This document shows, in pieces, positions 6,001 to 9,000 of a stretch of 25,186 bases of DNA (position 1 is its first letter; each line of letters opens with the position of its first letter). The DNA comes from a virus. Its lineage: Duplodnaviria; Heunggongvirae; Uroviricota; Caudoviricetes. The position numbers were made by a program. The stretch is from IMG/VR virus record IMGVR_UViG_2563366883_000011. One strand, given 5' to 3'.

Positions 6001-9000
6001 GTTCTGCTGACCAGGTCATGATACAGCGGTTTATCCGCCCCCCACAGGGACGAGCCTGCGGTCGCTCCCGACGCTTCGTTAAACGCCCCCTCGGCCCCCG
6101 CAGTAAATCCCGAATCGCCACGGCCACATGGAACAAGAAGGATACCCGCATTCGCAGGCATAAACGGCAGCAGCTTTTTGGCAACATGCAGAGCATGCCC
6201 CACACAACCGTACTGCCCCTTATTCAGGTCCGCATGAGGATGATTCAGGTTACTCATATCCTGCACATCATGCAGACAGTGGTCTGCCGGAATGATGTCG
6301 TTATATTTACAGGCGGCACCACCCGGCGTCACCGTACTGCGACGCGCCAGCTGTTTAATACGCGGGTCCGGACGGTCATATGTCTCCGGCAGCGGCAGCC
6401 CTTCCCCAAAAGACATTGAGTTTGACTGCCCCGCCAGAACAACAACAAAGTAATACTCCGGTTCGCTGGTGGTGCTGATAACTGTGCCTTCTCCATCCGA
6501 CGGCTTCACCACCACAGGTGTGGTGACATCACCTTCCGCCGCAATGGCCTGCATCAGGGTATAAGGCGTGATGGCCACCGGGCTGCCAAATGGCTGCCAC
6601 CCCTCCTTCAGTTTTTGTGTCAGTCGCTCCGCAAGGTCTGACGGCGACGCCGCCCTGACCACATCGTAGTGTTTAAATGTCATGAATCCTCCCGGTCGGG
6701 ATAATGTTGTGAGTCAGATAAGGAGCGAGCTGAAGTCCGGAAGTTACAGGACAATGGCAGGAGGAAGACTACAGCCCGCAATACGAAAAAGGCCGCGCAG
6801 TTGCGCAGCCTTATGAATTCTGGTTAAAATCCATTCGATTATAAAAATGTATATCTCATGCTGTTGCCCGAACCCACTCGGGCTTTTTTTTGCCCACAAG
6901 AAAGCCCCTCCGGAGAGGGGCTAAAGCCGCGTATCTGTATCATCATGCACATGGTGCCGGGTGCCTCCCGGTGAGTTCAGCCCGGTGCCACTAAACCCGC
7001 GTCATTCTCGTTTTGATAATCAGAGATTATACCGTCACCAGTCGCCCCTCCGCTCAGGGGGATTCACCATGCGAAATTTTTTTAACAAATGCCCAGTCTG
7101 ACAGGCAACTGTCAACTTACTGAATTGTGAGCAACATAGCATTTAACGGGGAACCTGTTTTCTGCAGTAAAAAGGCCCACCGGAGCGGATGGGCCTGGAA
7201 GGATAGCGGTCATGTGATGCCGGTTTCCCGGTAACTCAGCACCGGTATCTGAGTCAACGTTTTCTCTACTGGGTCATTTCCGATACGCCCTGCCTGCTGA
7301 CAGGCTTTCATCACATCTGAAAATATAGCACCCTGACTGATACTGTAGTACCCAAGGTTCCAGAAACTGTGATGTATCCGGCACAGAAAAGCCCCTCCGG
7401 AGAGGGGCTGGAGAGTGGCGCTATGTGCCATTGCATGGTGCCGGGTGCCTCCCGGTGAGTTCAGTATCAGCACCTGAACCCGCACAGAAAGGATAAGGGT
7501 CGGTGACAAAACACCAGTTGCTGATTGCCCCTCCGCACAGGGGGATTCACCATGCCAGTTTCTTTTAACAAACTCCCCGCAAACCAGACAACAGTCAACC
7601 GCCTGAATTGTGAGGTATTTAAAAATTTCAACGGGTAACTGATACCCTGCTAATCGCCTGATGCTTTCTTTTTCAGCAACGGGAAAGCAACAACCACCAC
7701 ACCCACCAGCCGCCCATTTACCACAAATAAAAAAGCCTTCACTGCGGAAGGCGTCTGTAACAACCGAACTGATAGTCTGCCAGACCCGCCATAACCAGCT
7801 GGGTCAGTATTAACTGGCAGCGTTCACGTGAAAGGTAAGTATTCTGCGCAATCTCCCCGACTGTCGCCGGGTAGGTGACGCTTAATTCATTAAACACCAC
7901 TCTGGCGGTTTCTGTCATATCCTACTGTTTTAGCATGTCTTTTTCCCTTTTCCGGTTAACGTGACATACCAATAACTCTTGTCTAAAAAGCCAGCAAGCT
8001 GAAAGACAGGTATTCACCACCAGCACGTTTACTGTACTGATGCGATTTCAGTCATAAAAAACCCGCCAGGCGGCGGGTTTAAGTTGTGTGGCGTAGTAAC
8101 CACTCTTAACATACTGACATACTTTTTGCGGACCGCGCTAATCATTTTTTACTTTTTTGGGCAGCCAGTCGTCCATCTCCAGCCTTACACCCAGCATCGA
8201 CAGACATCCGTCAATAAATCCTTCAGCAATCTGCATCTCAATTCGTATTGCCTTTTCGCTCTTCTTTCTTGTTCTGGCAATCTGCCTTTTTGATATGCGC
8301 AGCAGATAATGAGCTACCAGCAGCGAATACTCGTCCGGTTTTTTCTTCTTCAGGCGCGTAAGGCAGTTTTCGATGATAAGGCCGTCATCATCGCTGCAGG
8401 CCGGGCGAGGTTTAGCGGTGGATGGTAAAAGGCCTTTAAATCCAGCAGCTATCGGAGAATAGTCCACCCCGGCGTTACCACTTGCCGCCCATGCCCCCCA
8501 GCGTTCGAGAACCATCTGAATATCACGCATCAACTTTCTCCACAAAATCAGGACAGCACACCAATCGCCAGCGCGCGATCGATAAAACGAAATATCAGCT
8601 CCAGCTGGGAGCCATACTTCTCTTCAAATGCCACGGTATCCGCATGCAGCTCGTCGTGATGCTTTCTGCACAAAGGCAACACAAAGAGGTCATGCGCTTT
8701 TGTACCCATTCCGCCCTGACCGTGACCTATCAGGTGGTGGGGATCATCAGCAGGTTTTCCACAACATGCGCACGGCTGCGTCTTAACCCAGCGCGTGTAC
8801 TTTTCATTAACCCAGCGGCGACGTTTTGGGCGTAACATAAAAGACTCCGGCGACTCCGGATCCACTTTCAGCGCCAGCACCTTTTTCGCTTTATCCCGGA
8901 TAATACTGGTGGCGGGAACCGAAGGCACAAGGTCACTTTCCCGGGTGACAGACGGCACAACCGTCTTCGGTAATCTCAGTACCTTACGGGCTGCACTTTC

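What the first reader, a model, noticed from the sequence alone, without database searches (positions are those of the whole stretch)
6684..8137. 1.45-kb late leader between Q and nanS-p holds two tandem diverged promoter-hairpin-terminator modules and at least five minus-strand intrinsic terminators
Stx phages carry the late promoter, tRNA genes and stx in this position; here there is no ORF over 60 aa and no tRNA. Instead a roughly 250-bp unit occurs twice in direct orientation (6894-7157 and 7382-7637). Read on the late (minus) strand, each copy starts with a TTG.CT-17-TTAAAA promoter-like element, contains a CCCCT/AGGGG hairpin, and ends in an 8-bp GC hairpin plus T-run. Further terminator-like hairpins lie at about 8052-8079, 7724-7752 and 7166-7195. 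The pattern suggests a duplicated late-promoter / 6S-like leader module or a pair of small RNA genes, with late gene expression gated by stacked terminators.
Basis: partly seen in the sequence, partly recalled or inferred. Interest (0 to 1): 0.6.

Follow-up and report, generated by a model that had tools for sequence, protein, structure and literature searches.

The report
Known prophage small-RNA gene cluster
The repeated promoter-hairpin-terminator modules between Q and nanS-p are tandem genes for a known family of prophage small regulatory RNAs (STnc100/PasD), facing a known AsxR-like anti-sRNA gene, so the region is ordinary for an E. coli lambdoid prophage.

Summary
The window is an E. 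coli lambdoid prophage. The 1.45 kb between Q (8545-8138, minus) and nanS-p (6683-4704, minus) is the "moron" site downstream of the late promoter.

Both repeat units match Rfam STnc100 (RF02076) far above its threshold: 165 and 141 bits against 47. This is the same family as PasD1/PasD2 of EPEC and EcOnc27/sRNA103 of EHEC, which are Hfq-bound small RNAs made in uninduced lysogens.

The stretch between the two units is a third, diverged copy. It scores 30 bits, covers the full model and keeps the helices through compensatory changes.

On the plus strand (6836-6891) an AsxR/AgvB-type anti-sRNA gene converges on copy 1. Tree et al. (2014) described exactly this "convergent sRNA pair" layout.

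The real late promoter and terminator cassette is most likely the ~90-bp block next to Q (8137-8048). The repeats are not it. The other hairpins end a 59-aa moron ORF and form a last stop before nanS-p.

The "duplicated late promoter / 6S leader" option is not.

One minor possible addition is a covarying loop-to-strand pairing (pseudoknot or alternative fold) that the Rfam structure line printed for the two matches does not show.

The parts
8138..8545 (-). Antiterminator Q gene (135 aa), Q21 family
   Evidence: Pfam PF06530, E 3.3e-52. phrog_79. Related to phage 21 Q structures 6JNX/6P18, E 1.4e-7.
8048..8137 (-). Candidate late promoter-terminator cassette (pR'-tR'). It holds an 8-bp tandem direct repeat AGTATGTC/AGTATGTT (8123-8108) and an intrinsic terminator (stem 8077-8062, T-run to about 8056).
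   Evidence: The block is nearly invariant behind the 91-99% identical Q genes where the contig continues past Q. The terminator loop varies while the stem is kept. Sequence downstream of the terminator switches to unrelated DNA in some phages. The repeat period matches the two-subsite QBE of Q21. The hairpin folds at -16.3 kcal/mol, z = -3.0. The start site was not located, and no sigma-70 consensus hit was found.
7739..7918 (-). 59-aa moron ORF of unknown function
   Evidence: phrog_331, E 6.5e-33. Annotated as a 65-aa hypothetical protein in RefSeq relatives. The window carries a TAG that removes the upstream ATG.
7735..7752 (-). Intrinsic terminator overlapping the stop codon of the 59-aa ORF
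   Evidence: Terminator scan: 6 pairs followed by TTTTTT.
7384..7591 (-). STnc100/PasD-family sRNA gene, copy 2. -35 TTGTCT 7591-7586; -10 TTAAAA 7568-7563; RNA about 7555-7384 (172 nt); terminator 7409-7390.
   Evidence: Rfam RF02076, 141.4 bits against a gathering score of 47. The 5' end follows from alignment to PasD2. Fold -73.4 kcal/mol, z = -4.0.
7168..7330 (-). Diverged third STnc100-like gene, copy 3. Extended -10 TGCTATATT 7330-7322; RNA about 7316-7168; terminator 7196-7173.
   Evidence: Rfam RF02076, 30.1 bits (below the gathering score), E 4e-5, model positions 1-206 aligned with the helices kept. It lies between two canonical copies in 8 of the 10 IMG/VR contigs that hold it. Changes between its two variants keep the P2 hairpin and turn a U.G into a U-A in P3. 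Fold z = -3.0.
6897..7108 (-). STnc100/PasD-family sRNA gene, copy 1. -35 TTGCCT 7108-7103; -10 TTAAAA 7085-7080; RNA about 7072-6897 (176 nt); terminator 6922-6903.
   Evidence: Rfam RF02076, 165.5 bits. Alignment to PasD2. Structure supported by covariation.
6836..6891 (+). AsxR/AgvB-type short anti-sRNA gene converging on copy 1; terminator 6866-6883 followed by T8.
   Evidence: Rfam AsxR RF02703, 63.0 bits, equal to its gathering score of 63. AgvB RF02702, 43.4 bits, below 56. TAAAAT at 6825-6830 lies 6-7 nt upstream of the model start. Same convergent layout as in Tree et al. 2014.
6789..6812 (-). Last minus-strand intrinsic terminator, about 100 nt upstream of the nanS-p start codon
   Evidence: Strongest hit of the terminator scan: 10 pairs, 7 of them G-C. 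By eye its stem resembles the PasD-type terminator GGCTGCGCA..GCGC.GCC, which sits at the same position in E2348/69 (sequences); blastn returned no match there.
4704..6683 (-). nanS-p (sialate O-acetylesterase), first late gene after the sRNA cluster
   Evidence: Pfam DUF1737 + SASA + DUF6645. RefSeq annotates it as a SASA family carbohydrate esterase.

Best explanation
The region is the moron insertion site downstream of the late promoter of an E. coli lambdoid prophage. It carries a cluster of small-RNA genes of known families.

Layout in the late (minus) direction:
1. Q, followed at once by a short Q-linked block that most likely holds pR' and its terminator tR'.
2. A 59-aa moron ORF with its own terminator.
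3. Three tandem STnc100/PasD-family genes. Two are canonical and a diverged one sits between them.
4. On the other strand, an AsxR/AgvB-type anti-sRNA gene that converges on the last STnc100 copy.
5. A final terminator, then nanS-p.

Anatomy of each STnc100 unit. It has its own sigma-70 promoter (TTG at -35, 17 nt, then TGTTAAAA). It encodes a 150-176 nt RNA with a closed, multi-helix 5' domain, a roughly 25-nt unpaired variable stretch, and a GC terminator hairpin with a U tail.

How it most likely works:
- In the lysogen, transcripts from pR' stop at tR'. The sRNA promoters fire independently. The RNAs bind Hfq through the terminator and U tail, and they pair with host and accessory mRNAs through the variable 3' stretch. 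That stretch differs among the three copies, so they should have different targets.
- The terminators also keep these promoters from reading into nanS-p and the lysis genes.
- After induction, Q-modified RNA polymerase from pR' ignores all six minus-strand terminators.

What is shown here: family membership, conserved promoter geometry, conserved structure with covariation, and gene order.

What is inferred from characterised homologues: expression, Hfq binding, action in trans, and the exact pR' start site.
For: Family membership. Rfam gathering-level matches to STnc100 at 165.5 and 141.4 bits, and to AsxR at 63.0 bits. A third full-length STnc100 alignment scores 30.1 bits.

Structure. The consensus has 34 pairs, 95.5% of cells paired, and 12 pairs with compensatory changes. 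None of 500 shuffles reaches this, and pairing falls to 38-50% when the partners are slid.

Promoter. The -35 / 17 nt / -10 geometry is kept in 49 distinct upstream sequences, including the otherwise dissimilar PasD-type upstream region. The published 5' end of PasD2 (172 nt; Northern blot and Hfq RIL-seq) aligns to the G of GCATGG, 7 nt after the -10 element.

Expression of homologues. RpoD ChIP-exo binding patterns were reported at STnc100 promoters in Salmonella LT2. EDL933 has 11 STnc100 copies, transcribed without induction, one confirmed by Northern blot. EcOnc27/sRNA103 is an Hfq-bound RNA that partly overlaps the predicted STnc100 just downstream of stx2B.

Layout. Tree et al. 2014 describe convergent sRNA pairs in the moron site 3' of pR' in eight Sakai prophages.

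Q cassette. Q is of the Q21 family. The Q-linked block ends at terminator 8079-8052, and mosaic junctions fall right after it.

Distribution. Parts of the region occur in 3459 of 5426 complete E. coli genomes and in 369 phage records, mostly Stx phages.
Against: There are no transcript data for this prophage, so starts, ends and expression levels are inferred.

The -10 element (TTAAAA / TAAAAN) is weak, and the generic promoter scan does not call it.

The U tails of copies 1 and 2 are interrupted (UUUCUUGU, UUUUCUGU).

Copy 3 scores below the Rfam threshold. A PHROG family of called ORFs (phrog_23557) overlaps it.

No target of any STnc100-type RNA has been validated in the papers I read.

The pR' start site could not be placed.
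Confidence: 0.88

Rival explanations
1. Each repeat unit is a copy of the late promoter plus a 6S-like leader and tR'. Late transcription would then start, and Q would load, at the repeats.
For: Each unit does have a promoter-like element, a structured RNA and a terminator, as the lambda pR'-6S-tR' unit does. In Stx phages the pR'-tR' RNA (StxS) is itself an Hfq-binding sRNA.
Against: The block that stays linked to this Q allele is the 90 bp next to Q, not the repeats.

STnc100-type units lie behind an unrelated, 229-aa Q in E2348/69, behind tRNA genes and an HTH gene in another strain, and downstream of stx2B.

No direct-repeat Q-binding element like that of Q21 lies between their -35 and -10 elements.
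Confidence: 0.03
2. The units act in cis within the read-through late transcript. They might be RNA elements that stabilise, process or insulate the late mRNA, or put-like elements acting on the polymerase, rather than trans-acting sRNAs.
For: The units lie on the late strand inside the late operon, so they are also part of the Q-antiterminated transcript. The 5' domain is more conserved than expected for a simple seed carrier, and it may contain a pseudoknot.
Against: Homologues accumulate as discrete 170-210 nt RNAs in uninduced cells and ligate to many mRNAs on Hfq. The promoter geometry is conserved. The variable single-stranded stretch next to a terminator is the usual Hfq-sRNA design.
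Confidence: 0.06
3. The middle unit (7381-7158) is not an RNA gene. It is either a decayed remnant or a small protein gene (the 32-55 aa ORF ending at 7210).
For: It scores below the Rfam threshold, 30.1 against 47. phrog_23557 matches the C-terminal 53 residues of the mechanical ORF 7210-7509. The frame stays open in both variants.
Against: All helices of the family are kept through changes on both sides, for example P1 AUGUGAUG/CAUCACAU instead of CAUGGUG/CACCAUG.

Between the two variants the substitutions cluster in the P2 hairpin and keep it. At least 5 amino acids change within the 33 codons of the short ORF, and no Shine-Dalgarno sequence precedes its ATG.

The extended -10 TGCTATATT and the terminator are intact. 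The longer ORF would have to read through the terminator of copy 2.
Confidence: 0.1

Closest known systems
STnc100 (Rfam RF02076); called EcOnc27 / sRNA103 in EHEC
   Same: Full-length matches far above threshold, with the same helices. Same position on the late strand just upstream of nanS-p (in Stx2 phages, 75 nt downstream of stx2B). Same convergent partner.
   Different: Here there are three in tandem with no stx or tRNA genes. One copy is too diverged for the Rfam threshold. Model positions 1-29 appear to be promoter rather than RNA if the PasD2 5' end applies.
PasD1 / PasD2 of EPEC E2348/69 (Pearl Mizrahi 2021; Zhu, Shabalina and Storz 2026 preprint)
   Same: Same promoter geometry, same 5' end sequence GCAUGGUGAAUCC, same P2 hairpin, similar length (172-176 nt), and the same locus between Q and the sialate esterase.
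   Different: The 3' half differs. PasD has a long U-rich tail with the seed UGUGAG and a GGCUGCGCA terminator. The window copies have other 3' stretches and a GCCCCUCUCCGGAGGGGC terminator. A terminator whose stem resembles the PasD type by eye survives separately at 6812-6789 (blastn found no match).
AsxR / AgvB anti-sRNAs (Tree et al. 2014)
   Same: A 53-56 nt gene on the strand opposite to the late genes. It has the conserved 3' part and converges on an STnc100-type gene in the moron site.
   Different: The 5' variable part differs from AsxR at several positions. It lacks the CACAACA GcvB mimic of AgvB (alignment), so its target is unknown.
Lambda 6S RNA / StxS (the pR'-tR' short transcript)
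   Same: A promoter, a short RNA and a terminator lying between Q and the late genes. StxS also binds Hfq.
   Different: StxS starts at pR', is tied to the 144-aa Q, and is the Q-loading transcript. The repeat units are independent of Q type. The counterpart here would be the RNA of about 50 nt ending at 8079-8052.
Phage 21 Q / pR'21 cassette (PDB 6JNX, 6P18)
   Same: Q is a relative. A tandem direct repeat of 8-bp period lies next to Q and is followed by a terminator.
   Different: The repeat sequence is GTATGT rather than TGAGCA. The -35, -10 and pause elements could not be assigned.

Membership tests
STnc100 (RF02076) / PasD sRNA family | Covariance-model score at or above the curated gathering score (47 bits) | tested here: met
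   Copy 1 scores 165.5 bits and copy 2 scores 141.4 bits, both over model positions 1-206. Copy 3 scores only 30.1 bits, E 4e-5, so it is not met for that copy.
STnc100 (RF02076) / PasD sRNA family | Conserved fold: outer helix GCAUGGUG/CACCAUGC enclosing the CCCCC/GGGGG hairpin, the GGGUUCAG/CUGAACUC hairpin and the CCGGG/CCCGG hairpin, followed by a terminator | tested here: met
   On 24 sequences that include the three window copies: 34 pairs, 95.5% paired, 12 pairs with compensatory changes, 0 of 500 shuffles as high, and slid controls at 38-50%.
STnc100 (RF02076) / PasD sRNA family | Location in a lambdoid prophage between Q (or a moron CDS) and the sialate esterase gene | tested here: met
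   The literature describes the same location.
STnc100 (RF02076) / PasD sRNA family | Own promoter and intrinsic terminator (an independent transcription unit) | tested here: met
   Met at the sequence level only. The -35 / 17 nt / -10 geometry is conserved in 49 distinct upstream sequences, and the terminators are found. Transcription itself was not tested.
STnc100 (RF02076) / PasD sRNA family | Accumulates as a discrete RNA and binds Hfq | not testable with these tools
   Shown only for homologues.
AsxR / AgvB anti-sRNA family | Covariance-model score at or above the gathering score | tested here: met
   AsxR scores 63.0 bits against 63, exactly at threshold. AgvB scores 43.4 against 56, which is not met.
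AsxR / AgvB anti-sRNA family | 51-60 nt RNA with a conserved 3' part of about 42 nt, convergent with a late-strand sRNA in the moron site | tested here: met
   The gene spans 6836-6891(+). Its 3' part is identical to the AsxR consensus from GCCCGAACCCACUCGGGCUUUUU. It converges on copy 1.
AsxR / AgvB anti-sRNA family | Sequence that mimics the target of a core sRNA (CACAACA for GcvB; the FnrS-pairing stretch for AsxR) | tested here: not met
   There is no CACAACA in 6836-6888 (alignment), so it is not an AgvB. Pairing with FnrS was not tested.
pR'-tR' late leader (lambda 6S / StxS type) | Lies directly after Q and is inherited together with the Q allele | tested here: not met
   Not met for the repeat units. 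It is met for the block 8137-8048.
pR'-tR' late leader (lambda 6S / StxS type) | Q-binding element and a sigma-dependent pause element at the promoter | tested here: inconclusive
   An 8-bp tandem repeat at 8123-8108 resembles the two-subsite QBE of Q21 in its layout. No -35, -10 or pause hexamers could be assigned.

The most novel reading that the evidence does not exclude
The conserved 5' domain of STnc100/PasD RNAs may contain a pairing absent from the Rfam structure line printed for the matches here.

Six to nine nucleotides just after the CCCCC/GGGGG hairpin are complementary to the 9-10 nt loop of the GGGUUCAG/CUGAACUC hairpin. This complementarity is kept through different sequences in 7 of 8 sequence classes: AUCAGC/GCUGAU, CUGGUG/CACCGG, AAUGAUCGA/UUGAUCAUU, AAUGAC/GUCAUU, CUGGCU/AGCCAG, UAUCAGUAC/GUACUGAUA and UAUCGG/CCGGUG.

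That would make the scaffold a pseudoknot or a two-state switch. The scaffold is recombined with interchangeable 3' seed-plus-terminator cassettes. The three-gene array, including a copy that Rfam misses, would then deliver three different seeds from one moron site.
Probability: 0.45. Interest if true: 0.35.

Novelty: already known. Interest (0 to 1): 0.15.

Why it matters
It matters little as a discovery. The family, its position in the prophage and the convergent-pair layout are all published and curated in Rfam.

It is useful for annotation. The RefSeq record inspected lists only hypothetical or pseudo ORFs here and no RNA genes. A third family member escapes the Rfam threshold. The first 29 positions of the Rfam model look like promoter, which bears on published target predictions that used positions 5-15.

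If the extra covarying pairing is real, it would give a structural handle on why the 5' domain of these abundant, virulence-linked sRNAs is so conserved.

Tried and rejected
- Wasted collection scan. All rows shown were outside Enterobacterales and look like chance matches, so no cross-genus set was obtained. The same pattern worked on viral contigs.

- pR' start site. I looked for a sigma-70 consensus promoter for pR' between Q and the first terminator and inside the 3' end of Q. The scan found none, and reading by eye gave only weak candidates. The start site is left unassigned.

- tRNA or insertion element. No tRNA or tRNA remnant was found. Nothing resembling an insertion element was seen; an IS1 sits in this region in one related strain only (H9).

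- Similarity to PasA. blastn finds none in the window.

- Formal column-wise count of the extra pairing. The two arms shift register between sequence classes in the MAFFT alignments. I used per-class duplex searches with loop shuffles instead. By my own Fisher combination of those eight per-class values the result is roughly P = 1e-6, but the classes are not fully independent.

- Coding reading of the mechanical 99-aa ORF 7210-7509. It has no Pfam match. It overlaps two RNA genes and a terminator. Only its tail matches a PHROG of called ORFs.

- One 2026 preprint that mentions PasD and CsrA could not be opened.
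Full report
**What is there**

The window is an E. coli lambdoid prophage. The 1.6 kb around the finding is 99.8% identical to the chromosome of strain JNEC-KY203. Parts of it occur in 3459 of 5426 complete E. coli genomes and in 369 phage records, mostly Stx-converting phages.

The late genes are on the minus strand. 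Q lies at 8545-8138 (Pfam PF06530). nanS-p lies at 6683-4704 (DUF1737 + SASA + DUF6645). There is no tRNA.

- Direct repeats recur at a spacing of 483-484 nt.
- 7157-6894 against 7637-7382 gives 77.7% identity over ungapped columns, z = 20.9.
- The TTGCCT/TTGTCT-17-TTAAAA elements, the CCCCC/GGGGG hairpin and the 8-bp GC terminator hairpins are at the stated places.
- The terminator scan lists 10 sites against 1.7 expected; three of the ten are nested sub-stems.
- The hairpin at 8079-8052 was not listed by the scan. By reading and folding it is a canonical terminator.

**What the repeats are**

A scan of the whole window against Rfam at curated thresholds gives two full-length matches to STnc100 (RF02076) on the minus strand: 7101-6892 at 165.5 bits and 7584-7379 at 141.4 bits, against a gathering score of 47. 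It also gives one match to AsxR (RF02703) on the plus strand at 6836-6888, at 63.0 bits, exactly its threshold.

STnc100 is a prophage small RNA first catalogued in Salmonella.
- In EHEC EDL933 it has 11 copies, transcribed without induction, one confirmed by Northern blot.
- The predicted copy just downstream of stx2B in Stx2 phages partly overlaps the Hfq-bound RNA called EcOnc27 or sRNA103.
- In EPEC E2348/69 the related RNAs are PasD1 and PasD2. They are 172-173 nt, confirmed by Northern blot, and among the most abundant RNAs on Hfq in RIL-seq.
- A 2026 preprint concludes that PasD and STnc100 share an ancestor. It places PasD2 between Q and the sialate esterase gene, which is the locus examined here.

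Tree et al. (2014) had already described the layout as a whole. The moron site downstream of pR' in eight Sakai prophages carries convergent sRNA pairs. One member is a short AsxR/AgvB-type anti-sRNA on the opposite strand. [quoted passage not shown] The finding is therefore an instance of something published and curated.

**Anatomy worked out here**

*Start sites.* I fetched the E2348/69 locus and aligned PasD2 with the two window copies. The published PasD2 5' end falls on the G of GCATGGTG. The RNAs would be about 176 and 172 nt long.

*Promoters.* I collected 118 family members from viral contigs. They have 49 distinct upstream sequences. The conserved positions are TTG at -35 and TTTGTTAAAA (an extended -10, TGn-TAAAAN), always 17 nt apart. 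This holds even in the PasD-type upstream region, which is otherwise unrelated. If this start also applies to STnc100, positions 1-29 of the Rfam model are promoter rather than RNA. RpoD ChIP-exo binding patterns at STnc100 promoters have been reported in Salmonella LT2.

*Structure.* On 24 diverse sequences the consensus fold has 34 pairs. Of the cells, 95.5% are paired and 12 pairs show compensatory changes. None of 500 shuffles reaches these values, and sliding the partners drops pairing to 38-50%. The fold is an outer helix (GCAUGGUG/CACCAUGC) closing a domain with three hairpins. It is followed by an unpaired stretch of about 25 nt and the terminator.

*Variable 3' stretch.* The unpaired stretch differs between the copies: UGCAUGAUGAUACAGAUACGCGGCUUU in copy 1 and AAUGGCACAUAGCGCCACUCUCC in copy 2. 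This is where PasD carries its proposed seed. Scaffolds and 3' cassettes recombine. All four combinations of the two window scaffolds and the two window tails exist among phages: copy 1, copy 2, L137 and L208.

**A third copy**

The 224 bp between the two units is a diverged family member.
- Rfam aligns it over the whole model at 30.1 bits, E 4e-5, below the threshold.
- Every helix is kept through changes on both sides. For example, the outer helix is AUGUGAUG/CAUCACAU.
- It occurs in 10 viral contigs, in 8 of them between two canonical copies, in two variants that are 90.5% identical.
- The differences between the variants cluster in the second hairpin and preserve it.
- The ORF that phage annotators have called here (phrog_23557) changes at least 5 amino acids within the 33 codons of its short form between variants and lacks a ribosome-binding site.

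I read it as a third sRNA gene, with about 0.1 left for a remnant or a small protein.

**The rest of the region**

*Q and the likely pR'-tR' cassette.* Q is a relative of phage 21 Q (PDB 6JNX/6P18, E 1.4e-7). I compared 80 viral contigs with 91-99% identical Q genes.
- Where the contig continues past Q, the 60 bp after the Q stop codon are nearly invariant. They contain a tandem 8-bp repeat, AGTATGTC AGTATGTT (8123-8108).
- The following terminator keeps its stem while its loop varies.
- In some phages the sequence switches to unrelated DNA immediately after the terminator.

This is what a Q-pR'-tR' cassette should look like. The repeat has the period of the two-subsite Q-binding element of Q21. 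I could not assign -35, -10 or pause hexamers, so the start site is inferred to lie in this block and is not located.

*Moron ORF.* Downstream lies a 59-aa ORF at 7918-7739 (phrog_331). It is annotated as 65 aa in relatives, and the window has a TAG after the upstream ATG. It has its own terminator at 7752-7735.

*Last terminator.* After the three sRNA genes and the convergent AsxR-like gene comes a last strong terminator at 6812-6789, about 100 nt before nanS-p. By eye its stem resembles the PasD-type terminator found at the same place in E2348/69 (sequences printed); blastn returned no match between the two stretches.

**How it most likely works**

In the lysogen, pR' transcripts end at tR'. 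The sRNA promoters act on their own. The RNAs bind Hfq and act in trans through their variable 3' stretches. The anti-sRNA on the other strand presumably sponges a core sRNA. It lacks the GcvB-mimic CACAACA, so it is not AgvB, and its target is unknown.

Six minus-strand terminators separate these promoters and pR' from nanS-p and the lysis genes. After induction, Q-modified polymerase reads through them all.

Family membership, promoter geometry, structure and gene order are shown here. Expression, Hfq binding and action in trans rest on characterised homologues. No target of an STnc100-type RNA has been validated in the papers I read.

Of the two interpretations, "small RNA genes" is right. 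"Duplicated late promoter / 6S-like leader" is not, because the units are independent of Q type.

**One thing that may be new**

In 7 of 8 sequence classes, the 6-9 nt that follow the CCCCC/GGGGG hairpin are complementary to the 9-10 nt loop of the GGGUUCAG/CUGAACUC hairpin. The sequences differ in each class. Per-class loop-shuffle P values range from 0.0004 to 0.11. In copy 3, a G-to-A change between variants turns a U.G of this pairing into a U-A.

The pairing crosses the hairpin stem, which itself covaries. So it is either a pseudoknot or an alternative state. From general knowledge, not a test: two unpaired loop bases on one side and one on the other is the arrangement in the HIV-1 DIS kissing loop.

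It is absent from the Rfam structure line printed with the matches. The 2026 preprint derived its structures with RNAalifold, which as I understand it predicts nested pairs only. I could not run a column-wise test because the arms shift register between classes. All sequences come from one collection of enterobacterial phages.

Noticed in passing
window 15015-15203 (-): Two more curated RNA matches lie side by side: C4 antisense RNA (RF01695, 82.4 bits) at 15102-15015 and isrK (RF01394, 61.6 bits) at 15203-15127. Both fall inside the 5' part of the mechanical ORF 14412-15563, whose Pfam domains (Ash, then Rha) begin only at residue 117. From memory this resembles a P1 immI-like or Gifsy isrK-like antisense-controlled regulatory module. 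If so, the true protein start is probably downstream of the RNAs.
   Followed up: partly
window 4583-4697 (+): A conserved promoter-plus-terminator unit converges on the 3' end of nanS-p. It reads TTGACA, 17 nt, TTAAAA, then about 75 nt, then CTGCCGCTGGCGG followed by T9. It is kept at 80-98% identity in 17 fetched loci. Rfam gives only a weak Esr41 match (23 bits against 102). It sits where PasA lies in E2348/69 but has no blastn similarity to PasA. It is probably another prophage sRNA gene.
   Followed up: partly
window 7072-7101 and 7555-7584 (-): The first 29 positions of the Rfam STnc100 model cover the -10 element and spacer. They lie upstream of the 5' end mapped for PasD2. A published prediction that STnc100 positions 5-15 pair with stxB would then concern untranscribed DNA.
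   Followed up: partly
window 7040-7060 with 6985-7000; 7520-7540 with 7465-7480; 7280-7295 with 7235-7250 (approximate, - strand): The bases after the P2 hairpin are complementary to the loop of the P4 hairpin in 7 of 8 family sequence classes. This suggests a pseudoknot or an alternative fold that is absent from the Rfam structure line printed with the matches.
   Followed up: partly
window 7924-7922 (-): A TAG replaces the CAG found in relatives. This cuts the 65-aa form of the moron ORF down to 59 aa starting at the next ATG.
   Followed up: yes
loci L251, L255, L299, L313, L316, L324 and others: Several IMG/VR contigs with this Q gene end at or just after the Q stop codon, and others end within 400-700 bases of it. 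A plausible cause is that assemblies break at the multicopy sRNA and terminator repeats downstream, which I did not test. If so, this cluster would be under-represented in draft assemblies.
   Followed up: no
L243 (E. coli 2018-166) 3574-4898: In another strain the same 65-aa ORF and the same STnc100 units are separated by an HTH-domain gene and the tRNA-Ile/Arg/Arg trio typical of Stx phages. Two opposite-strand genes are inserted between Q and the ORF. This illustrates how freely modules are swapped at this site.
   Followed up: no
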